Assembly (NCBI GenBank): GCA_966211315.1
Contig: CBIHNN010000013.1
Span: forward strand, 19,225-83,224
Reading direction: 5' to 3'
Length of the DNA stretch: 64,000 nt
DNA from: an uncultured Micromonosporaceae bacterium
GTDB lineage: Bacteria > Actinomycetota > Actinomycetes > Mycobacteriales > Micromonosporaceae
Positions 26,921 to 43,901 of the stretch are shown in pieces (positions within the stretch are counted from its first letter, which is position 1; every line of letters starts with the position of its first letter). Both the position numbers and the translations under genes were made by a program. The notes under the pieces are model-generated. The model saw only the letters and a program-made list of their open reading frames with translations. It was not told the DNA's origin and did not search any database.

Positions 26921-27180
26921 CGCGAACGGTGCGGGCGTCCGCGCCGGCACGGTGACCGCGCCTGAAGGGGTGGAGTGTGGCTTCCGCCCGAACGCGACGG
27001 GCTCGCCTCCTGGTGGTGGTGACGGATGGTTCACACCATCTGTCGCTGCCCGGGGGTCACGAGTAGCGTGATTTTTGCGCAGAGTTACCAAGATCCCGGT
27101 CAGGTGCGGGGGACGGGACGTCGCGATCAACCAGGTGCCGGCCCTAACGGTGACGCCGGCCGATCCGGAGGGGGACCCGG

Positions 27181-28698: not shown

Positions 28699-28765
28699 GC
28701 GGCGACAGGCAGATGGGCAGGCAGGACAAGCGGGGCATGCCCCATCCGGACGTGCGGAGGCGTCG

Positions 28766-30412: not shown

Positions 30413-30476
30413 GCAGGTCCGCCGATCGGATCCGCGCCGGGTCTGTTCCGCGGCCGCCGCACCCGCCGATACTGGT

Positions 30477-31817: not shown

Positions 31818-32028
31818 GGTTCACTTCCTCGGGACCGGGACCGGGGCCGGGCCGGGGCCTGAAGCCCACCGATTGCCTGTGGGATCAGCATCACGGCGGG
31901 CCCGCCGGGCGTCTGTTAGCGCGACGACACGGCATCGCAGAACGGGCGTACCGCATCGGACTGTCGGTCGGCCGTGCGTGCCGATGCATGCGATCGACGC
32001 GGGCCGGACCAGGTCCTAATCTATGTGA

Positions 32029-35000
32029 ATGCCAAGCTGCTCCTCGTGCGGCGCGGACAACCCCGACCGTGCGCGGTTCTGTATGGACTGCGGCACTCCC
32101 GTCACCGCGGACCAGGTCCGCGAGGTACGCAAGACCGTCACCGTCGTCTTCTCCGACGTCGTGGGCTCCACCGGACTGGGCGAACGGCTCGACCCGGAGG
32201 AGCTGCGCAGGGTCATGACCCGCTACTACGAGCTGGCCAATGCGGTGCTCACCCGGCACGGGGGCCGGGTCGGCAAGTTCATCGGCGACGCCGTGATGGC
32301 GGTGTTCGGCGTACCCGTGGTGCACGAGGACGACGCCCTGCGCGCCGTGCGAGCCGCCGCGGAGCTGCACGCCGGCCTCGCCGAACGCAACGCACAACTG
32401 GAGCGGGACTACGGCGTCGAGCTGCACCTGCGGACCGGCGTGAACACCGGCGAGATCGTGCTGGCCGAGACCTACGGCGGCCAGGACATCACCATCGGCG
32501 ACGTCGTCAACGTCGCCGCCCGCCTGGAGCAGCTGGCGGACCCCGGCGAGATCCTGCTGGGCGACGTCACCTACCGCCTGGTGCGCGACGCCGTGACCGC
32601 GGAGATGCTGGCGCCGCTGACGGTCAAGGGCAAGGGTGTGCCGGTGGAGGCGTGGCGGCTGCTGGCGGTCAAGCCGGACGCGGAGGGCCACGCCCGGCTG
32701 CTGGACGCCCCGCTGATCGGCCGGGAACACGAACTGGGGCTGCTGACGCGCGCGTTCGACCGCACGATCAGCGAGCGGACGTCGCATCTCGTCACGCTGC
32801 TCGGCACGGCCGGCGCCGGTAAGTCCCGCATGGTGCAGGAGTTGCTCACCTGGTCCGGCGGCCGGGCCCAGGTGCTGCGGGGACGCTGCCCCGACTACGG
32901 CGAGGGGATGACGTACCGGCCGCTCACCGAGGTCGTACGCCAGGCCGCCGGTATCAGTGCCACGGCTGAACCGGAGGAGGCGCGGCGTCGGATCGCCGCT
33001 CTCTTCCCGGCGGACGAACCCGGCTCCATCGTGGACGATCTCGCCGCCCTCGTCGGTGACGTCGCGACCGGAGCCGCGGTCGAGGACCTTCAGGTCGCAC
33101 TGCACCGGCTGCTCGGTGCCCTTGCCGCGAGCCGGCCGCTCATCGTCGTGCTGGACGACCTGCAGTGGGCCGAGGCCGCCCTGTTGGACCTGCTGGAACG
33201 CCTGACCGAGTGGCTCCGCGACATCCCGGTCCTGTTATGCTGCCTGGCCCGCCCGGACCTGCTGGAGATCCGGCCGGGCTGGGGCGGCGGGCGGGTCAAC
33301 GCCACGACACTGATGCTGGAACCGCTGACGCCCGAGGAGAGTGCAGCGCTGCTGGACAACCTGCTCGAACACGTCCGCGGGGCGGACCTGGCCCGGCGAC
33401 GGGTCGTCGAGGCGGCCGGCGGCAACCCGCTCTACCTCCAGGAGCTCGTCGGGATGCTGATCGAGGACGGCCTGCTCGCCCGCGGTCCGGACGGCTGGGT
33501 GGCCACCACGGACCTGTCGAAGCTGGACATTCCGCCGAGCATCGCGGCCCTGCTCGCCGCCCGGCTCGACGCGCTTCCTGCCGGCGAACGAGCCGTCCTG
33601 GAGCGAGCCAGCGTGATCGGGCCGGTGTTCCACCGGGTCGCCGTCATCGCGCTCACCCCGCCGGAGGCGCGTGGGCAGGTCATCACGTACCTGCTGAATC
33701 TGGTCCGTAAAGAGCTGATCCGGCCGGAGCCCTCCGCGCTGCTCGGCGAGAGCGCCCTGCACTTTCGCCACGTGCTGCTACGCGACGCGGCGTACCGGTC
33801 ACTGTCCAAGCGCGAGCGCGCCGAGCTGCACGAACGGCACGCCGACTGGCTGGAGGCGAAGCACGCCGAACGCGTCGCGGAGCCCGACGAGGTCATCGGG
33901 TACCACCTCGAACAGGCCTGTCGCTACCGCACCGGGTTCGGGCCGGTGGACCCCAGCACCGCCCACCTCGCCGAGCGGGCGGCCGCGCACCTGATCGGCT
34001 CGGGCAGCCGCGCCTTCGGACGCCGGGACATGCCCGGCGCGGCCAGCCTGCTCGGGCGCGGCGTGGCCCTGCTGCCGGCCGAGAATCCCGAACGCCTGGC
34101 CGCGCTGCCGGATCTCGCCGCCGCCCTGGTGGAGATGGGGGAGTTCGGCCGCGCCGAGGCCATCCTCGTCGAGGCGGTCGTCGCCGCCGACGAACGCGGC
34201 GACGAAGGGCTGCGCGCCGCCGCCGTACGGGTGCGGTCGGTGCTGCGCCTGCTCGTCGGGCCGCCACCGGATGCGGCGCCACCGGGCTCACCCGCGGGGA
34301 GCGCCCCCGACAGCCAGGACACCGCCGCCCTCGCCGCTGGCTGGACACTCGTACGGGACGTCCGCTGGCTGCCCCGCTCGGCCGCCGCGGCGGCGCCGAC
34401 GGCCGGCGCGGAGCGCTCCAGCGCCACGACCACCGCCGTCGGCGACTTCACCATGCTGGCGGTGCTCGGGCCGACGCCGGTGCGGGCCGCGATCGAGCGG
34501 TACACCGAGTACCTGCGCCAGCCGCAGCTCAGCAACACGTTCACGGTCCGGGTGCTGGGCGCCCTCGCCGGGCTGACCGCCATGGACGGAAACGTCGACG
34601 ACGCCCGGCGCCACCTCGACCAGGCGATGTCGATCCTCGGCCAGCTCGGCCTGCGGGTACGAGCCGCCGCGCTCTCCTACCTCGCAGGTCTCGTCGACCT
34701 GCTGGCGGACCAGCCCGCCGCGGCGGAGGAACGGCTGAGCCAGGCCTGTCTCGACTGCGAGCGGATGGGCGAGCGGTACGTGCTCGGCGCCCTGCTGTCG
34801 CTGCGGGCACAGGCCAGCTACGCCCTGGGCCGGTACGTCGAGGCCGTCCAGCTGGGCGAGGCGGCCGAACAGAGCGGGTTCGGCGACGACATCGTGGCGC
34901 AGGTGACGGCCAGCGGCGCCCGGGCCAAGGCGCTGGCGCGACTGGACTGCGGTGACGAGGCGGAGCCGCTGGTCCGGGAAGCCGCCGCCGCGGCAGCCGG

Positions 35001-35202
35001 GACGGGCCTCATCAACCTGGCCGCCGACGCCCTGCTGGACCTCGCCGACGTGCACGAGGCGATCGGCGACGGCGAGGCCGCCGCGCGGGCTGCCCGGGAG
35101 GCACTGGAGCTGTACCTGCGCAAGGGCAATGTGGTGTCGGCGCGGCGCACCCGCACGATGCTGGAGCGGCTGCGCCCGGCCGAACCCGGCACCGGGTCCT
35201 GA
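32029..35202 (+). CDS. zinc ribbon / class III adenylate-guanylate cyclase / STAND (AAA) NTPase / TPR multidomain protein
   Basis: N-terminus CSSCGADNPDRARFCMDCG. Cyclase motifs VTVVFSDVVGST, GKFIGDAVMAVFG, QDITIGDVVNVAARLE. P-loop LLGTAGAGKSRM and Walker B LIVVLDDLQWA. The C-terminal roughly 450 aa are helical repeats. Confidence 0.9.
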   Translation: MPSCSSCGADNPDRARFCMDCGTPVTADQVREVRKTVTVVFSDVVGSTGLGERLDPEELRRVMTRYYELANAVLTRHGGRVGKFIGDAVMAVFGVPVVHEDDALRAVRAAAELHAGLAERNAQLERDYGVELHLRTGVNTGEIVLAETYGGQDITIGDVVNVAARLEQLADPGEILLGDVTYRLVRDAVTAEMLAPLTVKGKGVPVEAWRLLAVKPDAEGHARLLDAPLIGREHELGLLTRAFDRTISERTSHLVTLLGTAGAGKSRMVQELLTWSGGRAQVLRGRCPDYGEGMTYRPLTEVVRQAAGISATAEPEEARRRIAALFPADEPGSIVDDLAALVGDVATGAAVEDLQVALHRLLGALAASRPLIVVLDDLQWAEAALLDLLERLTEWLRDIPVLLCCLARPDLLEIRPGWGGGRVNATTLMLEPLTPEESAALLDNLLEHVRGADLARRRVVEAAGGNPLYLQELVGMLIEDGLLARGPDGWVATTDLSKLDIPPSIAALLAARLDALPAGERAVLERASVIGPVFHRVAVIALTPPEARGQVITYLLNLVRKELIRPEPSALLGESALHFRHVLLRDAAYRSLSKRERAELHERHADWLEAKHAERVAEPDEVIGYHLEQACRYRTGFGPVDPSTAHLAERAAAHLIGSGSRAFGRRDMPGAASLLGRGVALLPAENPERLAALPDLAAALVEMGEFGRAEAILVEAVVAADERGDEGLRAAAVRVRSVLRLLVGPPPDAAPPGSPAGSAPDSQDTAALAAGWTLVRDVRWLPRSAAAAAPTAGAERSSATTTAVGDFTMLAVLGPTPVRAAIERYTEYLRQPQLSNTFTVRVLGALAGLTAMDGNVDDARRHLDQAMSILGQLGLRVRAAALSYLAGLVDLLADQPAAAEERLSQACLDCERMGERYVLGALLSLRAQASYALGRYVEAVQLGEAAEQSGFGDDIVAQVTASGARAKALARLDCGDEAEPLVREAAAAAAGTGLINLAADALLDLADVHEAIGDGEAAARAAREALELYLRKGNVVSARRTRTMLERLRPAEPGTGS

Positions 35203-35228
35203 TCCGCCGGTCACGGAAGGAGGCTGCG

Positions 35229-38200
35229 ATGGCGCAGCGCGTCGAGATCCGCGAGCTGGGCCGGCCGGCCCGGGTGGTGACCATCGCGGAGACCGTGGAG
35301 GTGGGACGTGACTGCGCCGGAATCGTGGTGTCCGATCCGGAGGTCTCGCGCCGCCACCTGACGCTGTCGTACGCCGACGAGACCCTGTCCGTCCTGGACC
35401 TGGGCAGCAGCAACGGCACGAGCGTCAACGGCGTACCGGTCACCGCCCAGACGCCGCTGCACGCGGGTGACGTGGTGGGGCTCGGCGATGCGCAGATCGT
35501 CGTGCTGCCACCCCGGGACGGGCCGGTACCGGTGGACGCTCCCACCGAGGCCATGGCGGGCCCGGACGGTGCGGTGCCGCCGGCGCCGCCGGAACCCGCC
35601 CGGACGCCGCCGCCGGCCCGTCCGGCGCTCGACGAGCTCGCCGTCCGGGACACCGACGCGGCAGTGATCCGGTACCGCCGGGGATCAGCCGGCGAACGCG
35701 CCGCCTCCGGGTACGCGTCCGCGGTGCGCCGTGCCCGCCGCAGGCTCGCCGGTCTGGGATCCGAACCCTGGGGCGTACGCCCGCAGATCTGCCTCGTCGA
35801 CCCGTTCCCCAGTCCGGACGACCCGGACGACCTGCTGGCCGCCGGCACCGTCGTGGACCCGGTCCACGGCGAGATCTGGATGGTGGTGACCGCCGACTCG
35901 CCCCCGGAGTCTCCGGAGCGCCCGTTGGCGCTGTTCTTCGGTGCCGGGCTGCCCGCCGCCGACGACGTGGCCGCCCTGGTGGAGGGCTACGGCCTGCACC
36001 TGGCCCGGTTGCCGTCGCCGGATGCGTTCCTGCGCGGTTCGGACCTGCCACCCCTGGCGGAGGCCGACGGTCAGCTGCGCGTCCTCATGGCGGTGTCGTT
36101 CGTCCGTCACCTGCTGGCTCGCGGCGGCGAGCCCGCGTTTCGGCAGCTGCTGGCCACCGCCCAGCCCGGGGCCGTCGACGCGGCGGCGGAGCAGGTCTAC
36201 GGGCTGCCTCTGTCGGCTCTCGAGCCGCGGTGGCGCGCGGGCCTCACGACCCCGCCGCCGCAGGCCCGCACCGCCGACTTCCTGCGGTTGACCGGTGCCT
36301 ACCTGCGCCGGCACGGGTGGTGGCTGACGCAGCTGGTGGTCTGCACGGTGGCCACCGTGGCGTTGGTGGTGCTCCTGCCGCTGGCGCTGCGCAGACTGAT
36401 CGACCAGGTCCTCCCGGCCCGGGACCTCGTTGCCGCGGTGCGGATCGTCGGGGTGCTGGCGGGCGCCCTCGTCGTCGCCGGGATGGCCGAGATCCGCCGG
36501 GTCCAGCTGTGGGCGAGGCTGAGCGTGACGTTCCTGCAGCAGCTGCGCGCGGACATGTTCGCGAAGCTGCAGACGCTCTCGGCGAGCTGGTACGCGGCCC
36601 CCGGCCGCGGCACGGACGTGCTGTCGCGCCTGCTGGCGGACGCCGCCATTCTCCAGTCCGGCCTGCACGCCGTACGCGATGCCGTCTCGCAGGGTGTCGT
36701 CCTGGTGGCCGCGACGGCTGTTCTCGTGGTGCTCAGTGTGCCCCTCGCGGCGACGGTGCTGCTGGGCGCCCTGCTGCTCGGCGCGCTCGGGCGTACGCTG
36801 GCCCGCCGCGCCGCCCGGCACGCCCACGATGCGCAGGAGCAGGTCACCTCCGTGGTGTCGGTGGCCGCCGAAAGCTACGCCGCGCACGCCCTCGTGCAGG
36901 CCTACGGGCTCGAAGCCGACCAGCGTGGCCGGTTCCAGCGGGTTCTCGACCACAACGCCGTCCGGCAGCGTCGCGCGCTGGTCTCCGAGAGCCTGCCCGG
37001 CGTCTGCGTCGATGGCACGGCCACCGCGTTGCGCCTCGCCGTGCTGGCGGTGGGCGCCTGGCTGCTGGTCACCGACCGGGTCACGGTGGGCGCCCTGGTG
37101 GCGGTGCTCGTGATCGTCGACCAGGTGGTCCGGCCGGTGTCCGCCCTCGCCATGCTCGGTGGACGACTCGACGCGACGAGGGGCGCCGTGGTCCGGGTCA
37201 CCGACATCCTCGCTGCCCAGAACGAGATCGCCGAAGCACCCGAGGCCGTCGACCTGCCCCGGCCGCGGCGGGAGATCCGGTTGTCCGGGATCGGGCTGGA
37301 AGCCGGACCGGACCGGCGCCCGCTGGCCGACGTGGACGCCGCCATCCGGGTGGGTAGCCGGGTGGCGTTCGTGGGGGCGCCCGGTACCGCGATCTCGTCG
37401 GTGGTGCAGCTGCTCCTGCGGTTCTGCGACCCGACGACCGGCGCTGTGCGCATCGACGGACAGGATCTGCGACACGTCACCGTCTCCTCGCTGCGCGGCC
37501 AGATCGGGGCCGTCCTGCGCGAGGCCGTGCTCGTCGACGCGACCGTGGCCGAGAACATCGCGCTGGGCGGCCCCGGCGCGGGTCACGTGGCGATCGAGGC
37601 CGCGGCCCGCGCCGCGGAGGCGCACCCGTTCGTCCTCACCCTCCCGCACGGCTACGACACCCGGGTGGGGGAGCGCGGCGTACGGCTCAGTGAGGCCCAG
37701 CGGCGCCGGATCGCACTGGCCCGGGCTCTGCTGCGGGACCCGGCCGTACTGCTGCTCGACGACGTCACCGCCGACCTGGACGTGCGCTCCGAACGGCTGT
37801 TCACCGCGACGCTCGCGCGGGTGGGCCGCGGCCGTACCGTCATCACCGCCACCCACCGTCTGACCACGGTGGTCGACTACGACCAGATCTTCCTGATGGA
37901 CGGCGGCCGGATCGTGGAGCGGGGCGGGCACCACGGGCTGCTCCTGGCCGCAGGCCGGTACGCCGAGCTGTGGGCCGAGCAGGCCCACACCGGCCCGGTG
38001 GAGCCGACCCCGTTCGACGTCGCCGCCGCCCTCACCCGGATCCCGCTCTTCGCCCGGCTCGACGGGCGCGGGCTCGACCGGGTCGCACGCTGCCTGCACG
38101 AGCAGCGGGTCGACCGGGACGAGACGGTACGCAGCGACGACGGCCGGTTGCTCCTGATCCGGCGGGGCAGGGCGCTGGTGCTCGGCCCGGACCCGGCCGG

Positions 38201-38471
38201 CCGGCTCACCACCGTCGCCCGGCTGGGTCCCGGGCAGGCGTTCGGGCTGGGCGGTGTGATGGGTGAGCGGACGGGCACCCTGCTGCGCGCGCTGCGACCT
38301 CTGGAGCTGCTGGTGCTGAGGTCGGAGGCGCTCGCCGCGCTCGCGCTGGAACTGCCCGCGGTGGCCGCCGCGCTGGACACCGCCCCGGGCCGGGCGGTGC
38401 CGGCGGGCGGCGAGCGGCTGTCCCAGCTGGCACTGCGGCCTCCCGTGTCGGGGGATCCCCTGCCCGGCTGA
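35229..38471 (+). CDS. FHA domain / unassigned domain / ABC-exporter transmembrane domain / degenerate ABC nucleotide-binding domain / cNMP-binding domain fusion protein
   Basis: FHA: VEVGRD...SRRHLTL...GSSNGTSVNG. Six TM helices of the type I exporter kind. The NBD reads GAPGTAIS (Walker A), VLREAVL (Q-loop), LSEAQ (signature), LLLDDVT (Walker B) and ATHRL (H-loop). The C-terminal cNMP domain reads IPLFARLD...GQAFGLGGVMGERTGTLLRA. It lies 26 nt downstream of the cyclase gene. Confidence 0.85.
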   Translation: MAQRVEIRELGRPARVVTIAETVEVGRDCAGIVVSDPEVSRRHLTLSYADETLSVLDLGSSNGTSVNGVPVTAQTPLHAGDVVGLGDAQIVVLPPRDGPVPVDAPTEAMAGPDGAVPPAPPEPARTPPPARPALDELAVRDTDAAVIRYRRGSAGERAASGYASAVRRARRRLAGLGSEPWGVRPQICLVDPFPSPDDPDDLLAAGTVVDPVHGEIWMVVTADSPPESPERPLALFFGAGLPAADDVAALVEGYGLHLARLPSPDAFLRGSDLPPLAEADGQLRVLMAVSFVRHLLARGGEPAFRQLLATAQPGAVDAAAEQVYGLPLSALEPRWRAGLTTPPPQARTADFLRLTGAYLRRHGWWLTQLVVCTVATVALVVLLPLALRRLIDQVLPARDLVAAVRIVGVLAGALVVAGMAEIRRVQLWARLSVTFLQQLRADMFAKLQTLSASWYAAPGRGTDVLSRLLADAAILQSGLHAVRDAVSQGVVLVAATAVLVVLSVPLAATVLLGALLLGALGRTLARRAARHAHDAQEQVTSVVSVAAESYAAHALVQAYGLEADQRGRFQRVLDHNAVRQRRALVSESLPGVCVDGTATALRLAVLAVGAWLLVTDRVTVGALVAVLVIVDQVVRPVSALAMLGGRLDATRGAVVRVTDILAAQNEIAEAPEAVDLPRPRREIRLSGIGLEAGPDRRPLADVDAAIRVGSRVAFVGAPGTAISSVVQLLLRFCDPTTGAVRIDGQDLRHVTVSSLRGQIGAVLREAVLVDATVAENIALGGPGAGHVAIEAAARAAEAHPFVLTLPHGYDTRVGERGVRLSEAQRRRIALARALLRDPAVLLLDDVTADLDVRSERLFTATLARVGRGRTVITATHRLTTVVDYDQIFLMDGGRIVERGGHHGLLLAAGRYAELWAEQAHTGPVEPTPFDVAAALTRIPLFARLDGRGLDRVARCLHEQRVDRDETVRSDDGRLLLIRRGRALVLGPDPAGRLTTVARLGPGQAFGLGGVMGERTGTLLRALRPLELLVLRSEALAALALELPAVAAALDTAPGRAVPAGGERLSQLALRPPVSGDPLPG

Positions 38472-38587
38472 GGACTCTGTCAGCAAGCGCACACACATAC
38501 CGTCGTGGTGCCCACAGCAACGCCGCTGCTGCGGGCGGACAGTGTTCCGGTAGCACTCATTCGCCGACACATTCGCACGAGGAGGCC

Positions 38588-38956
38588 GTGATGGTCACCT
38601 ACACCATCCAGGACCCGTCCCGCCGCGAGGTTCGCAACCGTCCGCCGATCGTCGTGTCCGGCGCTGAGACGACCGACGCCCTGACGGCAGCCCGGGCCGA
38701 GGCGCTCTTCACCAGCGACGTGTCGGTGAGTTCGACCCTCGACGGGGACGAGTTCAAGGATGCCATCCGGCAGGCGCTGGTGCGCCACGGCGGCGTCCGT
38801 GGATGCGCGGCCGAGGTGGCAGCGGCGTACGGCGATCACCCGGAGACCGCGGCGCCGCGCATGCGCTGGGCCCGGCAGATCGTGCAGTCGGTGTACGGCA
38901 AGCAGGTCGCGCACCGCTGGGCGACTCACCGCGTACTGCTCTCCTCGGTTCAGTAG
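38588..38956 (+). CDS. hypothetical small cytoplasmic protein
   Basis: AGGAGG lies 6 nt upstream of GTG-ATG. GC3 is high. 122 aa with no TM segment (…ALFTSDVSVSS…GVRGCAAEVAAAYGDHPETAAPRMRWARQIV…). I could not name a family. Confidence 0.65.
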   Translation: MMVTYTIQDPSRREVRNRPPIVVSGAETTDALTAARAEALFTSDVSVSSTLDGDEFKDAIRQALVRHGGVRGCAAEVAAAYGDHPETAAPRMRWARQIVQSVYGKQVAHRWATHRVLLSSVQ

Positions 38957-39150
38957 GTCTCCGGCGGCGTTCGTCCGCCCGTCGCGGTGCGTCGCACCAC
39001 GGGCCGAACCGACCGACATCGCGCCATCTGTAAGCGTGAATCTCCAAGAGGTGGCGTCACTGTGGCCTATGTACGGTGAGCAGACCAGCCAGGACCTCGG
39101 TTTCCGGACAGCCTGTCGCCGGTCGGAGGTCTGCCACGAGGTGAGGGTGC

Positions 39151-40155
39151 ATGGTTCCTCCGCTCATCCGTACCGGCTCCGTCGGGTCGAGCCGGACAGC
39201 CGGCGATCGTCGGGTGACCGCCGGTCGTCCGCGTCGCGGGGGCACACGGTGGCGGCGGTCGTCCGTGGCGGGACTAGCCGTGATCATGGTCGTCACCGCG
39301 TGCACCGGCAAACCAGCGAGCACCCCCACGCCCGGCGCCGGCTGGTCCGTGGTGTGGAGCGACGATTTCGACGGCAAGGCCAACACCGGCCTGTCGCGGT
39401 CGGACTGGCTGTACACCGTCGGCACGAGCTATCCGGGCGGGTCACCCAACTTCGGCACGGCCGAGGTCGAGACGATGACCGACAGCGTCGAGAACGTCTA
39501 CCACGACGGTGCAGGTCACCTCGCCATCAAGCCGATCCGCTCCAGCGCGGGCACGTGGACGTCCGGTCGGGTGGAGACCAGGCGCACCGACTTCGCCGCG
39601 CCGGCGGGCGGCATGATGCGCCTGGAGGCGACCTTGCAGCAGCCCAATGTCAGTGGGGCACAGGCCGTCGGGTACTGGTCGGCGTTCTGGGCACTCGGGG
39701 ACGCGGCCCGGCCGGTGGGCGCCACGAACTGGGCGCACATCGGCGAGTTGGACATCATGGAGAACGTCAACAGCCGCGACTCGGTGTGGCAGACGCTGCA
39801 CTGCGGTCCTCCGGTCGGGGGTCCCTGCAAGGAGCCGGACGGCATCTCCAGCGGGGAGCAGCCGTGCGCCGACTGCCGGACCGCCTTCCACACGTACGCG
39901 ATCGAGCTCGACCGCAGCGTCACGCCGGAGCAGCTGCGCTGGTACGTCGACCAGAGGAACACGTTCACCGTCAGGGCCGACCGGGTCGACCAGACGACCT
40001 GGGAGAAGGCGACCCGCCACGGTTTCTTCGCCATCCTGAACGTCGCCATCGGGGGAGTCTTCCCGACCAAGTTCGGTGGGCCACCCACCGCCGCCACCAG
40101 GTCCGGCGTACCGATGCTCGTGGATCGCATCGCGGTGTACACCCGCGGAAAATGA
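39151..40155 (+). CDS. glycoside hydrolase family 16 lipoprotein (beta-1,3 or beta-1,3-1,4-glucanase type)
   Basis: Arg-rich n-region plus lipobox LAVIMVVTAC. WSVVWSDDFDG. Catalytic motif GELDIMEN (E-x-D-x-x-E). FHTYAIELD. Confidence 0.85.
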   Translation: MVPPLIRTGSVGSSRTAGDRRVTAGRPRRGGTRWRRSSVAGLAVIMVVTACTGKPASTPTPGAGWSVVWSDDFDGKANTGLSRSDWLYTVGTSYPGGSPNFGTAEVETMTDSVENVYHDGAGHLAIKPIRSSAGTWTSGRVETRRTDFAAPAGGMMRLEATLQQPNVSGAQAVGYWSAFWALGDAARPVGATNWAHIGELDIMENVNSRDSVWQTLHCGPPVGGPCKEPDGISSGEQPCADCRTAFHTYAIELDRSVTPEQLRWYVDQRNTFTVRADRVDQTTWEKATRHGFFAILNVAIGGVFPTKFGGPPTAATRSGVPMLVDRIAVYTRGK

Positions 40156-40168
40156 GGAGTGTCGATCG

Positions 40169-41821
40169 ATGACCAGCGCATCCGGGCGTGTGCGAGACGA
40201 ACCGACCTGGCGTCCCATCCAGCGTTCCACCCGGTTCGCGGTGATGCTGGCCCTGGGCGTCACGTTGTTCTACATGATCTTCCTGCTGAATCCGGCGTAC
40301 CGGGGGAACCCCTGGATCTGGGGGCTGGTGCTCTTCGCGGAGGGGCTCACGATCTTCAACGCCCTCTCGATGTGGTGGACGGTGCTGGTCAACACGCCGC
40401 GCCCGGACCCGCCGGAGGTGTACGTGTGGCGCCGTCAACTGATCACCGGTGCGCTGAGACCCACGATCGACGTCTTCATCACGGTCTACGGCGAACCCCT
40501 CGAAATCGTCCTGGTGACGGTCCGCGCGGCGCGCGACATGGACGTGGGGCACTTCACGTGGGTGCTGGACGACGGCGACAGCGACGAACTGCAGGCGGCG
40601 TGCGCCGAGGAGGGCGTGGGGTACCTGCGCCGCACCGAGCACTCGCACGCGAAGGCCGGCAACATCAACGCCGCCCTGAGGCGTACGAACAGCGAGTTCG
40701 TGGTGATCTTCGATGCCGACCACGTACCCAGCCCGGACTTCCTGGTGCGCGCCCTGCCGCACATGCAGGACTCGCTGGTCGCGTTCGTGCAGACTCCGCA
40801 GGCCTTCCCGAGCGCCAGGGGCATCGTCGCCGAGGGCGCGGCGGCGTCGCAGCGGATGTTCTACGAGCTCGTGCTGCCCGGCCGGAACCTCTTCAACGCG
40901 GTGTTCTGCGTGGGCACCAACGTCATCTTCCGGCGGGCCGCCCTCAACGAGATCGGCGGCATGTACACGGCCAGCAACTCCGAGGACATCTGGACCTCGA
41001 TCGAGCTGCACCGGCGCGGCTGGCGCTCGTACTTCATACCGGAGGTCCTGGCCCGGGGTCTCGCCCCGGACAGCCTGCTGCCGTTCTTCAAACAGCAGTT
41101 CCGCTGGGCGTACGGCGCGTTCGAAGTGCTGCTGCGCGGTGGTCTGTTCCGCGGCAAGGGCCTCACCGTCGACCAGCGTTTCCAGTATCTGCTGGCCGGG
41201 ATCAACTACCTGCTGTCGGTCGCCGCGCTCATCCTGATGACTCTGCCGGCGGTGTACTTGCTGTTCGGCCTGAGCCCGATCCGCGCGGACATCGACGTCT
41301 GGCTCGTGCACTACGCGCCGTTCTACCTCCTGATCATGCTGGTCACGGTGCTGCAGCTGGGCGGTTTCAAACTCGCCGCGGTCGTCATGAGCATCGGCGC
41401 CGCACCGGTGCACGTGAAGGCGTTCTTCATGGCGATGTTCAAGCGCAAGGTCCGCTGGACCGTCACCAACGCCGGGCCGAGGGGTCTGCCCGGGGTCGAG
41501 CTGGTGCTGCCGCACGTCTTCCTGCTGTTGCTCAACGCCGTGGCCATCGCCGTCGGCATCAGCATGATGCCGCTGCGGGGGACCGACATCGTGGCAGTCG
41601 GGCTGTCCATCGCCTGGGCGACGATCTACGTCCTGATCCTGGGTCGGGTCATCGCCGAGGCGGTCATCGCGCCCCAGGTCATCAAGGAGCGTCTGGAACG
41701 GCGAAAGGCGAGCGCGCTGCTCGCCAGGGCGCTGCCGTGGCCGACTCGCCGGGACGAGGCTGACGCCATGGTCAGCTCGGCCATCGAGGAGTCCGCCGGT
41801 TCCTCCGCGCGAACGAGCTGA
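40169..41821 (+). CDS. processive family-2 glycosyltransferase, cellulose/curdlan-synthase-like beta-glucan synthase
   Basis: VFITVYGEP, WVLDDGDSDEL, HAKAGNINAAL, VIFDADHVP (DxD), QTPQAF, FCVGTNVIFRR, SEDIWTS (TED-like), and QQFRWAYG (QxxRW), with TM helices at both ends. GAGGAG RBS lies 13 nt after the GH16 stop. Confidence 0.9.
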   Translation: MTSASGRVRDEPTWRPIQRSTRFAVMLALGVTLFYMIFLLNPAYRGNPWIWGLVLFAEGLTIFNALSMWWTVLVNTPRPDPPEVYVWRRQLITGALRPTIDVFITVYGEPLEIVLVTVRAARDMDVGHFTWVLDDGDSDELQAACAEEGVGYLRRTEHSHAKAGNINAALRRTNSEFVVIFDADHVPSPDFLVRALPHMQDSLVAFVQTPQAFPSARGIVAEGAAASQRMFYELVLPGRNLFNAVFCVGTNVIFRRAALNEIGGMYTASNSEDIWTSIELHRRGWRSYFIPEVLARGLAPDSLLPFFKQQFRWAYGAFEVLLRGGLFRGKGLTVDQRFQYLLAGINYLLSVAALILMTLPAVYLLFGLSPIRADIDVWLVHYAPFYLLIMLVTVLQLGGFKLAAVVMSIGAAPVHVKAFFMAMFKRKVRWTVTNAGPRGLPGVELVLPHVFLLLLNAVAIAVGISMMPLRGTDIVAVGLSIAWATIYVLILGRVIAEAVIAPQVIKERLERRKASALLARALPWPTRRDEADAMVSSAIEESAGSSARTS

Positions 41822-41833
41822 AGGGCAAACGTC

Positions 41834-42652
41834 ATGGTCCAACCGGCGCATGCGCCATCCACTCCGCACCAGCCGTCCACTCCTGAGCAGTCGGCCATTC
41901 CTCACCAGCCGGCCGCGCCGTCCCCCGCACCGGCCACACCGGCACCCGGCCGGCCGCGCGGGACCTTCCGGTCATGGTGGTCCCGCTTCCTCGTCCTCAT
42001 CATGGTGGCCGGAGCCGGCTTCGTCTTCCTGCTCATCAGCAGCAACCGGGCGGCGCAGGCCGCCCGCGTCGACCTGGGCACCGTCACACTGACCACGCAG
42101 TCCATCCCGGTCGAGACGGCGCGGTCCGGGCAGATCACCGCTGTCTCGGTCGCCGGGCAACAGACGGTCAAGAAGGGCGACAAGCTCGGCACGATCGAGG
42201 TCACCACGACCAAGGCCGACGGCGAGCCCGTCGTGAAGACACTCACTCTGACCGCGCCGCACGACGGCATCGTCGTCGACGAACCGGTCACCGTCGGCAG
42301 CACGCTCCAGCCGGGACAGCCCTTCGTCGTGCTGTACGACCCGACGAGGTTGGAGTTCGTCAGCGACATCCCGCTGAAGAACGTGCCCACGCTCGCCCGG
42401 GGCATGATCGCCAGCCTGAAGGCGAACGGGCTCGACCGCACCGTCAGGGCCTCCGTCCAGCGGGTCGTGCCGCGGGTCCCCGGGGCCAACCCCGCCGCCG
42501 ATGACGTCAGTCCGGATGCGCTGCGACTGGTGCTGGCTCCCGTGACCCCGCAGGAGGTGCGTGGGCTCGTACCCGGCCTGCGGTTCAAGGGCACCGTCGA
42601 CACCCGTACGGGGGAGAGCGGCGCCCCGAAGCTCGTCGCCATGCCGGCGTAG
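41834..42652 (+). CDS. HlyD/membrane-fusion-protein-like protein with one N-terminal TM helix
   Basis: Pro-rich N-terminus, then TM FLVLIMVAGAGFVFLLI. Lipoyl-like hairpin halves GQITAVSVAGQQTVKKGDKLGTI ... LTAPHDGIVVDEPVTVGSTLQPGQPFVVLYDP. Lies 12 nt after the GT2 stop. Confidence 0.7.
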   Translation: MVQPAHAPSTPHQPSTPEQSAIPHQPAAPSPAPATPAPGRPRGTFRSWWSRFLVLIMVAGAGFVFLLISSNRAAQAARVDLGTVTLTTQSIPVETARSGQITAVSVAGQQTVKKGDKLGTIEVTTTKADGEPVVKTLTLTAPHDGIVVDEPVTVGSTLQPGQPFVVLYDPTRLEFVSDIPLKNVPTLARGMIASLKANGLDRTVRASVQRVVPRVPGANPAADDVSPDALRLVLAPVTPQEVRGLVPGLRFKGTVDTRTGESGAPKLVAMPA

Positions 42653-42676
42653 CACGGTCGCCCCGGCGGCCGTGCT
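42651..42676. terminator. bidirectional terminator-like hairpin between convergent genes
   Basis: AGCACGGTCGCC-CC-GGCGGCCGTGCT (12-bp arms, one G:U-type mismatch) lies exactly between the MFP stop (42650-42652) and the crcB stop (42680-42682). Confidence 0.45.
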
Positions 42677-42679
42677 CGG

Positions 42680-43042
42680 TCAACCGGTGATCGCCTGCGC
42701 GATCAGCAGCCCGCCGTACGCGGCGCCGAGCCCGGCGACGACACTGGCGACGATGTTCGCGGCGGCGTACAGCCGGGCACCGTCCCGCGCCAGCCGCAGC
42801 GTCTCGTAACTGAACGTGGAGTAGGTGGTCAGCGCCCCGCAGAAGCCGGTGCCGAGCAGCGCCATGACCGCCTGCCCGGCCGGGAGCCCGGTGAGGAAGC
42901 CCAGCAGCAGCGAGCCGACGACGTTGACGGTCAGGGTGCCCCACGGGAACACCGAGTCGTGGCGGCCCTGGATCGCCCGGTCGGTCAGGTACCGCAGCGG
43001 TGCGCCGACAGCGGCGCCCAAGGCGATCAGCAGTACGGTCAC
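42680..43042 (-). CDS. crcB: fluoride channel CrcB/FluC
   Basis: 120 aa with four TM segments. [20 protein letters not shown], and [18 protein letters not shown] start overlaps the DUF190 stop. Confidence 0.85.
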
Positions 43043-43389
43043 CGGGTCTCCCGGCCGACGTAGCGGACGATTTCGACCGGGTCGACGACGGCCAGGCCTT
43101 CGCCGATCAGCTCGTCGAGCTGCGGCAGGAAGGCCCGGATCTTCTCCTCGGTGTCGACCACGATGACGGCCACCGGCAGCTCCTCCGACAGCGACAGCAG
43201 CCGGGTCGTGTGCACCCGGCTCGACGCGCCGAACCCCTCGATGCCGCGCAGCACCGTCGCACCGGCCAGCCCGGCGGCGTGCGCCCGGTGCACGATCTCC
43301 GCGTACAGCGGCTTGTGGTGCCACATGTCGGACTCGCCGATGAAGATCGTCAGCCGTGTTGCCGAGCCGTCCCACCGCACCGCGCTCAC
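43039..43389 (-). CDS. DUF190 (PII-like) protein commonly linked to crcB
   Basis: [45 protein letters not shown]...[17 protein letters not shown]. It is sandwiched between two crcB genes. Confidence 0.8.
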
Positions 43390-43400
43390 CTGCCCTCGCC

Positions 43401-43901
43401 TCACCGCCGGGCCCGCAGCGCCCACGCTGTGACCGTCGATCCCGCCCACACCGCCAGCATCGCCCCGACCAGGGTGGCACCCAGGTACGCCAGGGCCACG
43501 GCGGCACCGGCGTGCGCGGCGGCCCGCTGCACGTCCACGACCGAGGTGGAGAAGGTGGTGTACCCGCCGAGGACACCCACCCCGAGGAACGGGCGCAGCA
43601 GCCGGTGGCCCGCCCACACCTCGGAGATCAGCACCATCAACACCCCGATGAGCAGGCAGCCGGACACGTTGATCGACCAGGTGGACCACGCGAACCCGTC
43701 CGTTCGGAGGTGCGGCCACGCCACGGTCACCGCGTACCGGGCGAGCGCCCCGAGCACGCCACCGGCGGCGACGGCTGCGATCACCGGAACCGGGCTCGGA
43801 CGTGATTCCACCCGATTGGCGGGAACGTGGCGGTCGGCGTCCGCGCCGACGGATGTCACCGGCTCCTGCACACAACCCCCCGCGGACGACACGTTCACCA
43901 C
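43401..43901 (-). CDS. crcB: fluoride channel CrcB/FluC paralogue (start uncertain; possible roughly 40-aa N-terminal extension)
   Basis: [24 protein letters not shown], and [15 protein letters not shown]. Confidence 0.8.

What the first reader, a model, noticed from the sequence alone, without database searches (positions are those of the whole stretch)
39151..42652. GH16 glucanase / cellulose-synthase-like GT2 / HlyD-like adaptor operon: candidate exo-beta-glucan machine in a Gram-positive
Three genes are separated by 13 and 12 nt.

- The first is a GH16 lipoprotein with the ExDxxE catalytic motif. That family covers laminarinases and lichenases, not cellulases.
- The second is a processive GT2 with the full D, D, D(xD), TED-like and QxxRW motif set and flanking TM helices, but no PilZ domain.
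- The third is a single-TM membrane-fusion-like protein without an obvious long coiled-coil.

A GT2 synthase paired with an MFP is the arrangement of the Sinorhizobium mixed-linkage beta-glucan synthase BgsA/BgsB and of some cyanobacterial cellulose synthases. Those are diderm bacteria, where the MFP bridges to an outer membrane. In a monoderm actinomycete the MFP role is unclear. The GH16 partner points to a beta-1,3 or mixed beta-1,3/1,4 product rather than the CslA/GlxA-type glucan known from Streptomyces hyphal tips.
Basis: partly seen in the sequence, partly recalled or inferred. Interest (0 to 1): 0.6.

Follow-up and report, generated by a model that had tools for sequence, protein, structure and literature searches.

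The report
Actinobacterial beta-1,3-glucan synthase operon candidate
Three tightly packed genes in an Actinoplanes-like bacterium (a membrane-tethered beta-1,3-glucanase, a cellulose-synthase-like enzyme and a stripped-down 'membrane fusion' protein) form a widely conserved, apparently undescribed module that most likely makes and trims a curdlan-like beta-1,3-glucan in bacteria that have no outer membrane.

Summary
Three + strand genes lie at 39151-40155 (GH16), 40169-41821 (GT2) and 41834-42652 (MFP-like), separated by 13 and 12 nt.

- **GH16:** a predicted lipoprotein with an intact ELDIME site. It matches solved endo-beta-1,3-glucanases at E 2e-91.
- **GT2:** folds like BcsA (TM 0.71) but has no PilZ domain. 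It forms its own actinobacterial clade, 25-29% identical to BcsA, BgsA and CrdS.
- **Third protein:** one TM helix plus lipoyl and beta-barrel domains with no alpha-hairpin. Its best fold match is the hairpin-less adaptor BesA.

**Conservation.** In all 77 related genomic loci, GT2 is followed directly by the MFP-like gene. In 75 of them a beta-1,3-glucanase gene is adjacent: GH16 in one clade, the unrelated GH81 in the sister clade. A natural GT2-GH16 fusion protein also exists.

**Motifs.** The family carries SED and FCVGT where cellulose and mixed-linkage synthases have TED and FFCGS/FCCGS. Among the comparators, only the curdlan synthase (CrdS) family shares these variants.

**Best reading (about 0.6).** This is a monoderm-adapted, synthase-dependent beta-1,3-glucan system. 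No paper describing it was found. The product, co-transcription and biological role are untested. I rate it a new variant of a known kind, interest 0.6.

The parts
38472..39150 (+). 680-nt non-coding gap upstream of the operon; presumed promoter and 5' UTR region (not demonstrated)
   Evidence: No ORF here has a coding GC3 signal or a Pfam hit. No sigma-70-like promoter was found. Short RNA-library contigs cover 39074-39316 and 39105-39359, crossing the GH16 start. That is weak evidence only.
39151..40155 (+). GH16 (laminarinase-type) endo-beta-1,3-glucanase, predicted lipoprotein, 334 aa
   Evidence: PDB sequence hits: 3dgt at 2e-91 and 7eo3 at 5e-84, followed by many laminarinases. GC3 is 0.89. 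The ExDxxE motif is intact in 32 of 32 homologues in related loci.
39292..39303 (+). Lipobox V-T-A-C (Cys51) after the hydrophobic stretch at residues 38-57
   Evidence: Pattern and hydropathy scan. Lipobox-like or signal-anchor N-termini recur in the GH16 and GH81 partners elsewhere.
39745..39762 (+). GH16 catalytic motif E199-L-D-I-M-E204
   Evidence: It aligns with GELDIMENV of 3dgt.
40156..40168 (+). 13-nt intergenic spacer with a GGAG Shine-Dalgarno-like sequence
   Evidence: Sequence read directly.
40169..41821 (+). BcsA-like processive GT2 synthase/translocase, 550 aa, no PilZ
   Evidence: Pfam GT2 and Cellulose_synt hits. CelA 266 bits against a cut-off of 699. BcsA at 4e-55 by sequence. 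AF2 model pLDDT 80, with best fold match BcsA at TM 0.71.
40904..40918 (+). FCVGT motif (position of FFCGS in BcsA)
   Evidence: Invariant in 120 of 120 close homologues and in all family GT2s of the related loci. Shared with 118 of 118 CrdS-family proteins.
40979..40987 (+). SED motif (position of the catalytic TED in BcsA)
   Evidence: Family-wide, and shared with the CrdS family. The eight other comparators have TED.
41093..41107 (+). QQFRW (QxxRW) motif on the interface helix
41456..41470 (+). Gating-loop equivalent W-T-V-T-N; the Lys of FxVTxK is missing
   Evidence: The loop has low pLDDT at residues 431-441.
41690..41743 (+). Conserved cytoplasmic C-tail R508-x3-R512 ... R520-x-L-P-W-P525; function unknown
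   Evidence: Invariant or nearly invariant columns in alignments A1 and A4.
41822..41833 (+). 12-nt intergenic spacer (AAGGG)
   Evidence: Sequence read directly.
41834..42652 (+). Hairpin-less membrane-fusion (periplasmic adaptor)-like protein, 272 aa: Pro-rich cytoplasmic tail, one TM helix, lipoyl plus beta-barrel domains
   Evidence: HlyD_3 at 6.7e-12. AF2 model pLDDT 83.5 with no helices after the TM. Best fold hit is BesA at E 2.4e-8, followed by EmrA, ZneB, MacA and MexA. It follows GT2 in 77 of 77 loci.
41963..42061 (+). Single TM helix of the MFP-like protein (residues 44-76), preceded by the basic RSWWSRF stretch
   Evidence: alignment.
42653..42679 (.). GC-rich inverted repeat between the convergent stops of the MFP-like gene and crcB; probable operon end
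   Evidence: Sequence read directly: GCACGGTCGCC-CC-GGCGGCCGTGC. It has no T-tract, so the terminator scan did not call it.

Best explanation
The three genes form one functional module: a synthase-dependent exopolysaccharide system adapted to a single-membrane (monoderm) actinobacterium. Its product is most likely a linear beta-1,3-glucan, similar to curdlan.

**Proposed mechanism.**
1. The GT2 uses a UDP-sugar, presumably UDP-glucose, on the cytoplasmic face.
2. Like BcsA, it polymerises the chain and threads it through its own transmembrane channel. This follows from homology and fold.
3. The MFP-like protein is anchored by one TM helix beside the synthase. Its lipoyl and beta-barrel domains sit on the outer face as an obligatory partner or exit collar. 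Comparable single-TM partners are Alg44 for Alg8, BcsB for BcsA, BgsB for BgsA and CrdA for CrdS.
4. It has lost the alpha-hairpin that docks TolC-type channels, because there is no outer membrane to reach. Its role here is inferred.
5. The lipoprotein GH16 endo-beta-1,3-glucanase stays tethered at the membrane surface. It cuts, releases or length-controls the nascent chain, as BcsZ, CslZ, PslG and AlgL do in other systems. This is inferred from the conserved pairing.
6. The sister systems use GH81, an inverting enzyme, in the same position. The shared job is therefore hydrolysis, not transglycosylation.

Regulation is not through PilZ and c-di-GMP gating as in BcsA.
For: **Module.**
- Gaps are 13 and 12 nt, each with an SD-like sequence.
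- In all 77 loci from a scan of 185,579 species genomes, GT2 is followed by the MFP-like gene on the same strand.
- 75 of 77 loci have an adjacent GH16 (24 loci) or GH81 (the rest). The two exceptions are a contig end (L038) and L058.
- Gene order differs between lineages (GH16-GT2-MFP versus GT2-MFP-GH16), with 4-8 nt overlaps in called genes.
- The window's upstream ABC exporter and adenylate cyclase are not conserved neighbours.
- P0377, an 811-aa protein, is a natural GT2-TM-GH16 fusion.

**Beta-1,3 product.**
- GH16 matches solved endo-beta-1,3-glucanases at E 2e-91, and its catalytic motif is intact in 32 of 32 homologues.
- The sister clade carries GH81 (Glyco_hydro81C at 1e-53).
- In one locus a UDPGP-family gene follows GH16.
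- The FCVGT and SED motifs are family-wide and are shared only with the CrdS family. Its members are 76% and 57% identical to proteins that databases name 'beta 1,3 glucan synthase catalytic subunit'. The eight cellulose, MLG and other comparators have TED plus F(F/C)CG(S/T).

**Synthase type.**
- BcsA is the best sequence hit and the best fold hit (TM 0.71, E 3e-29).

**MFP.**
- The fold search puts the hairpin-less BesA first.
- Only about 60 residues separate the TM from the second lipoyl half, against about 230 in BgsB.

**Membrane tethering of the hydrolases.**

**Known analogues.**
- BgsB and TolC are needed for MLG synthesis (PMC13438883).
- The crdASC genes are needed for curdlan (PMC10819609).
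- An HlyD-like protein partners the cyanobacterial cellulose synthase (PMC8892547).
Against: - No experiment links any member of this family to a polymer.
- Linkage cannot be read from a GT2 sequence. The GT2 is equidistant (25-29% identity) from BcsA, BgsA and CrdS, and does not group with CrdS in the NJ tree. The shared SED/FCVGT motifs may therefore be coincidental or ancestral.
- GH16 laminarinases can also cut mixed-linkage glucans.
- Co-transcription was not shown: the RNA-library contigs are short and none spans a junction.
- No promoter or terminator was called.
- The MFP-like protein's relation to BgsB is weak (hhalign E 5.5e-5). Its relation to the CrdA-like protein is not significant (E 0.013).
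- No CrdC-like gene is present.
- Sugar-donor specificity is assumed.
Confidence: 0.6

Rival explanations
1. The module makes a mixed-linkage beta-1,3/1,4-glucan, as BgsBA does in Sinorhizobium. GH16 acts as a lichenase-type or laminarinase-type trimming enzyme.
For: The GT2+MFP bicistron is the same architecture as bgsBA (PMC13438883). GH16 as a family includes lichenases and beta-1,3(4)-glucanases (7wwc and 7ww4). The barley MLG synthase CslF6 is among the fold matches.
Against: - The sister clade uses GH81, whose characterised members act on beta-1,3-glucan only (established CAZy knowledge).
- BgsA has TED, FCCGS and FxVTxK plus a roughly 140-aa c-di-GMP-binding C-domain. This family has SED, FCVGT, WxVTN and a short tail (PMC5567048).
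- The best GH16 matches are strict endo-1,3-beta-glucanases.
Confidence: 0.12
2. It is a cellulose (beta-1,4-glucan) synthase, as automatic annotation says. The glucanase genes next to it serve another purpose.
For: Sources name the homologues 'cellulose synthase (UDP-forming)'. BcsA is the best sequence and fold match. Actinomycetes do make cellulose-like glucan via CslA (PMC11022532).
Against: - The CelA equivalog score is 266 against a cut-off of 699.
- There is no PilZ, no BcsB, no GH8 or GH6 cellulase, and no GlxA.
- Motif variants differ from all cellulose synthases compared.
- Two unrelated beta-1,3-glucanase families are recruited to the same position in 75 of 77 loci, and one is fused to the synthase. 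Hydrolases that cannot cut the product would not be retained this way.
Confidence: 0.1
3. The GT2 makes a different glycan: another sugar, a short oligosaccharide, or a wall-linked or lipid-linked glycan. The glucanase-fold proteins act on that glycan or have lectin-like or transglycosylase roles.
For: Donor and acceptor specificity cannot be derived from sequence. GH16 contains transglycosylases, and there is a weak Kre6/Skn1 Pfam hit. QQxRW also occurs in hyaluronan synthases (own knowledge).
Against: - The catalytic ExDxxE is intact in all GH16 partners, which are about 60% identical to true endo-beta-1,3-glucanases.
- GH81 is inverting and cannot transglycosylate.
- NodC, PgaC and HAS-type models and folds score far lower than cellulose-synthase types.
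Confidence: 0.08
4. The cluster is coincidental. The MFP-like protein serves an efflux pump, for example the ABC exporter 680 nt upstream, and GH16 is a foraging enzyme against fungal walls.
For: An FHA-ABC-cNMP exporter lies directly upstream (35229-38471). Sources annotate the MFP-like protein as 'multidrug resistance efflux pump'. Actinoplanes are known glucanase producers.
Against: - The ABC gene is not a conserved neighbour, whereas GT2-MFP adjacency holds in 77 of 77 loci.
- The hydrolases are membrane-tethered and lack carbohydrate-binding modules.
- A GT2-GH16 fusion exists.
Confidence: 0.03

Closest known systems
Curdlan system crdASC of Agrobacterium (CrdS GT2 synthase, CrdA, CrdC)
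   Same: - A BcsA-like GT2 without PilZ sits next to a gene that hits HlyD_3. In the crdASC-type cluster L007 the CrdA-like protein scores 24 bits.
- The SED and FCVGT motif variants are shared: 118 of 118 CrdS-family proteins have FCVGT and about 100 have SED.
- The product of crdASC is beta-1,3-glucan (PMC10819609), which matches the glucanase partners found here.
   Different: - Identity to the CrdS-like protein is only 25%, with no grouping in the tree.
- There is no CrdC-like gene.
- crdASC encodes no dedicated glucanase.
- CrdS keeps FxVTxK, whereas this family has WxVTN.
- The CrdA-like protein is 484 aa against 272 aa here.
- crdASC works in a diderm host.
Mixed-linkage beta-glucan system BgsB/BgsA of Sinorhizobium meliloti
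   Same: An MFP gene and a GT2 gene sit together. The GT2 lacks a canonical PilZ. The MFP is required for synthesis (PMC13438883).
   Different: - BgsB is 410 aa, with about 170 extra residues where the alpha-hairpin sits, and it works with TolC.
- BgsA has a c-di-GMP-binding C-domain and the TED, FCCGS and FxVTxK motifs (PMC5567048).
- The gene order is MFP first.
- There is no glucanase gene.
Cyanobacterial tripartite cellulose system (Tll0007/XcsA synthase, HlyD-like XcsB, endoglucanase, TolC-like)
   Same: The component logic is the same three parts: synthase, HlyD-like protein and glycoside hydrolase (PMC8892547).
   Different: It is a diderm system that needs a TolC-like exporter. Its synthase has PilZ and its product is cellulose. 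No sequence comparison was made here.
Streptomyces CslA/GlxA/CslZ hyphal-tip glucan system
   Same: It is an actinobacterial BcsA-like GT2 in an operon with a single-TM extracytoplasmic partner and a glucanase (PMC11022532, PMC8892547).
   Different: The partner there is a copper radical oxidase (GlxA), the hydrolase is a cellulase-type CslZ, and the product is cellulose-like. No such domains occur here. The CslA sequence itself was not available for comparison.
BesA of Borrelia burgdorferi (hairpin-less periplasmic adaptor protein)
   Same: It is the best structural match to the MFP-like model (E 2.4e-8, rmsd 3.7 A over 182 columns). Both have lipoyl and beta-barrel domains and lack the alpha-helical hairpin.
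   Different: BesA partners an RND efflux pump, has a membrane-proximal domain and is a lipoprotein. The protein here has an N-terminal TM helix, no membrane-proximal domain and a GT2 partner. Identity is 15%.
Alg44/Alg8 of the alginate system
   Same: A GT2 synthase depends on a single-TM co-polymerase whose periplasmic part resembles MexA/HlyD adaptors (PMC8892547).
   Different: Alg44 carries a cytoplasmic PilZ domain. The polymer and the rest of the apparatus differ. It was not compared by sequence here.

Membership tests
BcsA cellulose synthase (Bcs system) | Scores above the curated cut-off of the BcsA/CelA equivalog models | tested here: not met
   TIGR03030 scores 266 bits against a cut-off of 699. 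NF008558 scores 214 against 992.
BcsA cellulose synthase (Bcs system) | C-terminal PilZ domain that gates the active site through c-di-GMP | tested here: not met
   There is no PilZ hit in Pfam. The C-tail after the last TM is only about 50 aa. A Bradyrhizobium comparator run in the same way did show PilZ.
BcsA cellulose synthase (Bcs system) | Motifs FFCGS, TED, QxxRW and FxVTxK | tested here: not met
   QxxRW is present. FFCGS is replaced by FCVGT, TED by SED and FxVTxK by WTVTN.
BcsA cellulose synthase (Bcs system) | BcsB partner and a GH8 BcsZ cellulase in the locus | tested here: not met
   The partners are an MFP-like protein and GH16. No BcsB or GH8 domain appears among the 13 neighbouring proteins scanned.
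BcsA cellulose synthase (Bcs system) | Membrane-integrated GT-A domain plus a TM channel fold | tested here: met
   The AF2 model matches BcsA chains at TM 0.63-0.71 and E down to 3e-29.
CrdS curdlan synthase (crdASC) | Orthology to CrdS (sequence clustering) | tested here: not met
   Identity to the CrdS-family protein of L007 is 25% over 510 columns. The actinobacterial clade is separate in the NJ tree.
CrdS curdlan synthase (crdASC) | Family-typical active-site variants FCVGT and SED | tested here: met
   They occur in the window protein and in all its relatives, and in 118 of 118 (FCVGT) and about 100 of 118 (SED) CrdS-family proteins. They are absent from the eight other comparators.
CrdS curdlan synthase (crdASC) | CrdA and CrdC accessory genes | tested here: inconclusive
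   An MFP-like gene is adjacent, as CrdA is, but homology to the CrdA-like protein is not significant (hhalign E 0.013). No CrdC-like sequence occurs in the window or in 80 related loci.
CrdS curdlan synthase (crdASC) | Product is a linear beta-1,3-glucan | not testable with these tools
   This is inferred only from the GH16 and GH81 partners.
BgsA/BgsB mixed-linkage glucan synthase | BgsA-type C-terminal c-di-GMP-binding domain | tested here: not met
   The alignment shows no counterpart to the BgsA C-domain. The tail here is short and unrelated (PMC5567048).
BgsA/BgsB mixed-linkage glucan synthase | MFP partner with a hairpin that works with TolC | tested here: not met
   The model has no helix after the TM. 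The alignment to BgsB covers only the second lipoyl half and the beta-barrel. The host lineage is monoderm (established knowledge).
CslA/GlxA/CslZ (Streptomyces) | Adjacent GlxA copper radical oxidase and a cellulase-type CslZ | tested here: not met
   No such domains occur in the operon or among its neighbours.
CslA/GlxA/CslZ (Streptomyces) | Sequence clustering with CslA | not tested
Membrane fusion / periplasmic adaptor proteins (HlyD, MexA, MacA) | Lipoyl (barrel-sandwich) plus beta-barrel domains | tested here: met
   HlyD_3 and HlyD_D23 hits lie above their cut-offs. There are 48 PDB fold matches at E <= 0.001, all adaptor proteins.
Membrane fusion / periplasmic adaptor proteins (HlyD, MexA, MacA) | Alpha-helical hairpin that contacts an outer-membrane channel | tested here: not met
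   DSSP on the model shows only short helices after residue 76. The best match is the naturally hairpin-less BesA.
Membrane fusion / periplasmic adaptor proteins (HlyD, MexA, MacA) | Partner is an ABC, RND or MFS transporter | tested here: not met
   The conserved neighbour is the GT2 in 77 of 77 loci. The nearby ABC gene is not conserved.
GH16 laminarinase-type endo-beta-1,3-glucanases | Beta-jelly-roll catalytic domain with ExDxxE and close similarity to characterised enzymes | tested here: met
   3dgt at 2e-91, 7eo3 at 5e-84 and more than 15 laminarinase structures. ELDIME lies at residues 199-204.
GH16 laminarinase-type endo-beta-1,3-glucanases | Hydrolysis of laminarin or curdlan | not testable with these tools
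   This needs an enzyme assay.

The most novel reading that the evidence does not exclude
Two linked claims.

1. In BcsA-like GT2 synthases, the pair of active-site variants SED (for TED) and FCVGT (for FFCGS/FCCGS) marks, and perhaps determines, beta-1,3 rather than beta-1,4 regioselectivity. The same variants occur in two distant lineages, proteobacterial CrdS and this actinobacterial family.
2. The MFP-like partner is an intrinsic co-polymerase or exit collar of such synthases, and its core function does not depend on any outer-membrane channel. The hairpin and TolC link seen in BgsB and the cyanobacterial systems would then be a diderm add-on rather than the reason these synthases have MFP partners.

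The module would also be the missing genetic basis for beta-1,3-glucan production in Actinobacteria.
Probability: 0.3. Interest if true: 0.8.

Novelty: new variant of a known kind. Interest (0 to 1): 0.6.

Why it matters
**Gap in Gram-positive knowledge.** Synthase-dependent beta-glucan secretion is well described in diderm bacteria: Bcs cellulose, crdASC curdlan, bgsBA mixed-linkage glucan and the cyanobacterial Xcs system. In Gram-positives, essentially only clostridial cellulose and Streptomyces CslA/GlxA are known. Curdlan-type glucan is made by at least one actinobacterium, Cellulomonas flavigena, and its genes have not been identified (PMC3544764, PMC10819609).

**What the module offers.**
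1. A candidate gene set for actinobacterial beta-1,3-glucan, widespread in soil Micromonosporaceae and reaching Acidimicrobiia.
2. A natural experiment on what MFP partners do for GT2 synthases when there is no outer membrane.
3. A short, testable motif signature (SED/FCVGT) bearing on an open question: how related GT2 synthases choose the 3-OH over the 4-OH acceptor. The searches here returned no solved structure of a beta-1,3-specific GT2 synthase.
4. A compact three-gene cassette that could be useful for curdlan-like polymer production in Gram-positive hosts.

Tried and rejected
- **RNA evidence for co-transcription.** The runs that hold this sequence are mostly DNA-like assemblies, plus one soil metatranscriptome. 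Only contigs of about 200-270 nt were laid, and none spans a gene junction. Inconclusive.
- **Promoter, terminator and Rfam scans.** Nothing useful emerged. There were no promoter-like sites, the one in-operon 'terminator' lies inside the GT2 coding region, and there were no Rfam hits in the whole window.
- **Sporangium-matrix hypothesis.** In Actinoplanes missouriensis that matrix is made by a Wzx/Wzy-type imp cluster and cut by GH5 enzymes GimA and GimB (PMC12691653). It is a different system, so the idea was dropped.
- **Link to the upstream cAMP/ABC genes** (adenylate cyclase, Crp, FHA-ABC-cNMP). They are not conserved neighbours, so they were rejected as part of the module.
- **Phylogeny to assign linkage.** The NJ tree only shows a separate actinobacterial clade equidistant from BcsA, BgsA and CrdS. 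It cannot decide the product.
- **MFP fused to GT2 in long family members** (P0367, P0369). Their extensions are low-complexity tails, not MFP domains.
- **Direct homology of the MFP-like protein to CrdA-like or BgsB by tblastn.** No hits. There is only a weak profile match to BgsB.
- **Literature.** Nine searches found no description of a GT2-MFP-GH16/GH81 module in Actinobacteria. The library is incomplete, so this is not proof of absence.
- **CslA comparison.** It could not be done, because no sequence was available.

Full report
**1. Observation**

The window is about 70% GC. By best protein matches it comes from an Actinoplanes- or Couchioplanes-like member of the Micromonosporaceae: the GT2 is 79-85% identical to proteins of those genera.

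- 39151-40155 (334 aa)
- 40169-41821 (550 aa from the ATG)
- 41834-42652 (272 aa)

All three have third-position GC of 0.89-0.90, the coding signature of this genome.

The spacers are 13 nt (GGAGTGTCGATCG) and 12 nt (AGGGCAAACGTC), each with a Shine-Dalgarno-like purine run. A GC-rich inverted repeat sits in the 27 nt between the third gene's stop and the convergent crcB stop. Upstream lies a 680-nt stretch with no coding signal.

**2. The three proteins**

*GH16.* Pfam barely sees it (19 bits). A sequence search of the PDB gives endo-1,3-beta-glucanases 3dgt (E 2e-91, aligned over residues 57-329) and 7eo3 (E 5e-84), followed by a long list of laminarinases. The catalytic motif is E199-L-D-I-M-E204. 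A lipobox V-T-A-C51 follows a hydrophobic segment. There is no carbohydrate-binding module.

*GT2.*
- It hits the GT2 and Cellulose_synt models.
- Its best curated match is the CelA/BcsA equivalog, but far below the cut-off (266 against 699 bits). NodC (42 bits) and PgaC (64 bits) score much lower.
- BcsA is the best solved relative by sequence (4e-55).
- An AlphaFold model (pLDDT 80, pTM 0.80) matches BcsA chains best (TM 0.71, E 3e-29). Plant CesA, CslF6, hyaluronan synthase and chitin synthase follow in that order.
- The model has two N-terminal TM helices, the GT-A domain, the QxxRW interface helix, and five further long helices with a disordered loop at 424-442, where BcsA has its gating loop.
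- There is no PilZ domain.

*MFP-like protein.*
- It hits HlyD_3 and HlyD_D23 above their cut-offs.
- Its model (pLDDT 83.5) has a disordered Pro-rich N-terminus, one TM helix (residues 44-76), and then almost only beta-strands.
- The best structural match is BesA, the Borrelia adaptor that naturally lacks the alpha-hairpin (E 2.4e-8). EmrA, ZneB, MacA, CusB, MexA and the Gram-positive Spr0693 follow.
- Only about 20 residues separate the two lipoyl half-motifs, and no membrane-proximal domain follows the beta-barrel.

**3. Is it a unit?**

Context look-ups showed the same three genes in Couchioplanes, Kineosporia, Virgisporangium and an uncultured actinobacterium. The order there is GT2-MFP-GH16 in the last three, with 4-8 nt overlaps between called genes.

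I then scanned one genome per species (185,579 species) with an alignment of the GT2 family. The scan found 356 relatives, and the best 77 loci were fetched. tblastn with the three proteins and their paralogues gave the following:
- In all 77 loci, the GT2 is followed on the same strand by the MFP-like gene.
- 24 loci are window-type (GT2 65-82% identical) and all carry GH16.
- The other 53 loci form a sister clade (GT2 42-59% identical) with the order GT2-MFP-GH81.
- The sister clade includes Actinoplanes, Micromonospora, Krasilnikovia, Catenuloplanes, Klenkia and Acidimicrobiia.
- Only two loci lack a detectable hydrolase. In L038 the contig ends just after the MFP gene. L058 is the other.
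- Some genomes carry both systems side by side in convergent orientation (L001, L008, L037, L039).

GH81 was confirmed by Pfam (Glyco_hydro81C at 1e-53).

The window's upstream genes are not conserved neighbours: Zn-ribbon-adenylate cyclase-AAA-TPR, and an FHA-ABC exporter-cNMP fusion. The MFP-like protein therefore belongs to the GT2, not to that ABC exporter.

An exhaustive profile search also found P0377, an 811-aa protein. In it, a family-type GT2 is fused through extra TM segments to a GH16 domain with an intact GEIDAIE motif (70 bits). This is a Rosetta-stone fusion that ties synthase and glucanase together physically.

Co-transcription in this organism could not be shown. The only RNA-type data are short contigs, and none spans a junction.

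**4. What does it make?**

Linkage cannot be read from a GT2 sequence, and the tree does not help. The actinobacterial proteins form their own clade, 25-29% identical to each of the following:
- E. coli-type BcsA
- S. meliloti BgsA
- a CrdS-family protein
- a PilZ-bearing Bradyrhizobium GT2

Two lines of evidence point to beta-1,3-glucan.

*Line 1: the dedicated hydrolase.* Synthase-dependent systems typically encode a hydrolase or lyase for their own polymer, for example BcsZ, CslZ, PslG, PelA, PgaB and AlgL (established knowledge).
- Here two unrelated folds occupy that slot in sister clades: GH16 laminarinase (retaining) and GH81 (inverting). The activity they share is endo-beta-1,3-glucanase.
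- The GH16 catalytic motif is intact in 32 of 32 partners.
- The hydrolases are mostly lipoproteins or signal-anchored.
- Membrane tethering fits action at the synthase exit rather than foraging.
- Because GH81 is inverting, the common role is hydrolysis, not transglycosylation.

*Line 2: active-site motifs.*
- Where BcsA has FFCGS and TED, every member of this family has FCVGT and SED. That holds for 120 of 120 close homologues and for all family GT2s in the loci.
- FFCGS and TED line the acceptor site and hold the catalytic base (established from BcsA structures).
- The family also has QQxRW, and WxVTN in place of FxVTxK.
- Among nine comparators, only the GT2 of a crdASC-type cluster on an Agrobacterium plasmid shares FCVGT and SED.
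- That protein is 88% identical to the 654-aa Agrobacterium chromosomal protein.
- It is 76% and 57% identical to proteins that databases name 'beta 1,3 glucan synthase catalytic subunit'.
- Among its 118 family members scanned, all have FCVGT and about 100 have SED.
- BgsA (the MLG synthase), BcsA, an Enterococcus BcsA-like protein, a pAtC58 GT2 and others all have TED with F(F/C)CG(S/T).
- In the exhaustive profile search, the signature holds for roughly the top 20 clusters at 50% identity. It then gives way to FCCGT/TED and FFCGS/TED.

The motif evidence is correlative, but it is independent of the hydrolase argument. One locus also has a UDPGP-family pyrophosphorylase gene directly after GH16.

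**5. How it most likely works**

*Shown by homology and fold.* This is a BcsA-type enzyme that couples polymerisation to translocation.

*Inferred.*
- The single-TM MFP-like protein is an obligatory partner or exit collar. Comparable partners are BcsB, Alg44, BgsB and CrdA.
- In diderms these MFPs carry a hairpin and need TolC (PMC13438883, PMC8892547).
- Here the hairpin is gone, in keeping with the absence of an outer membrane. About 60 residues separate the TM from the second lipoyl half, against about 230 in BgsB.
- At about 195 extracytoplasmic residues, it cannot span an actinomycete wall. A membrane-proximal role is therefore more likely than a conduit.
- The tethered glucanase trims or releases chains.

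*Regulation is unknown.*
- There is no PilZ, and the gating-loop lysine is absent.
- A conserved cytoplasmic tail (R508xxxR512...LPWP525) is a candidate regulatory element.

*Biological role is unknown.* The Actinoplanes sporangium matrix is made by a different pathway (PMC12691653).

**6. Comparison with known systems, and novelty**

- **Architecture.** The module belongs with the GT2+MFP synthase systems: crdASC, bgsBA and cyanobacterial Xcs.
- **Membership.** It meets the fold-level criteria of BcsA-like synthases and of periplasmic adaptor proteins. It fails the defining features of Bcs (equivalog score, PilZ, BcsB, GH8, motifs), BgsBA (C-domain, hairpin and TolC) and CslA/GlxA (no GlxA or CslZ). 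It is not an orthologue of CrdS and has no CrdC.
- **Literature.** Nine full-text searches found no description of it. Reviews list only clostridial cellulose and CslA/GlxA for Gram-positives (PMC8892547). The genes for Cellulomonas curdlan are unassigned (PMC3544764).
- **Rating.** I rate it a new variant of a known kind.

**7. Verdict**

- Confidence that the three genes are one functional module is about 0.9.
- Confidence that the product is a beta-1,3-glucan is about 0.6.
- Interest is 0.6. The finding is computationally solid and experimentally tractable. It bears on what MFP partners do for GT2 synthases and on how linkage is chosen. No experiment yet backs the chemistry.

Noticed in passing
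window 27154-38471: A dense signalling cluster lies upstream of the operon: a trypsin-like protein with a Zn-ribbon, a Ser/Thr kinase (28655-30412), a Crp-family regulator (30390-31136), Cu/Zn SOD (31137-31820, - strand), a Zn-ribbon-adenylate cyclase-AAA-TPR protein (32029-35202), and an unusual FHA-ABC exporter-cNMP-binding fusion (35229-38471). These genes are not conserved next to the glucan module in other genomes.
   Followed up: partly
window 42680-43901 (- strand): A crcB-DUF190-crcB fluoride-channel-type gene set converges on the operon. No fluoride riboswitch, or any other Rfam family, reached the gathering score anywhere in the window.
   Followed up: partly
window 38472-39150: This 680-nt gap has no coding signal and no Pfam hit. 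A soil metatranscriptome contig matches 38658-38927 without mismatch, and other RNA-library contigs start at 39074 and 39105. It could hold a long 5' UTR, a small RNA, or simply DNA carry-over.
   Followed up: no
L001 13041-17740; also L008, L037, L039: In Couchioplanes and some Actinoplanes genomes a paralogous GT2-MFP-GH81 set lies convergent to the GH16-GT2-MFP set, about 0.5 kb away, with an inorganic pyrophosphatase gene between them in L001. The window itself holds only the GH16-type set.
   Followed up: yes
protein P0377 (811 aa; from the representative library, origin unknown): A natural fusion of a family-type GT2 (FCVGT, SED, QQRRW) to a C-terminal GH16 laminarinase domain through extra TM segments.
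   Followed up: partly
proteins P0367 (1033 aa) and P0369 (764 aa): These family GT2s carry long low-complexity cytoplasmic tails, Pro/Tyr/Gly/Gln-rich and Lys/Ala-rich (histone-H1-like) respectively, after an LPW-type motif. The tails have no Pfam domain and no MFP similarity.
   Followed up: partly
L007 3056-7990; L088 2474-5644; L086 2445-5650: HlyD-family gene plus BcsA-like GT2 pairs are common on rhizobial and agrobacterial plasmids. They include a crdASC-type cluster, a separate pair on pAtC58 next to a cache-domain protein, and bgsBA orthologues. The CrdA-like protein, whose function the curdlan literature lists as unknown, scores just above the HlyD_3 cut-off.
   Followed up: partly
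window 41834-42004: The collection's own gene call for the MFP-like protein is 216 aa (P0121) and starts inside the TM region. Homologues align over the full 272 aa, including the Pro-rich tail and the basic RKWRARF stretch, so the longer start at 41834 is preferred.
   Followed up: yes
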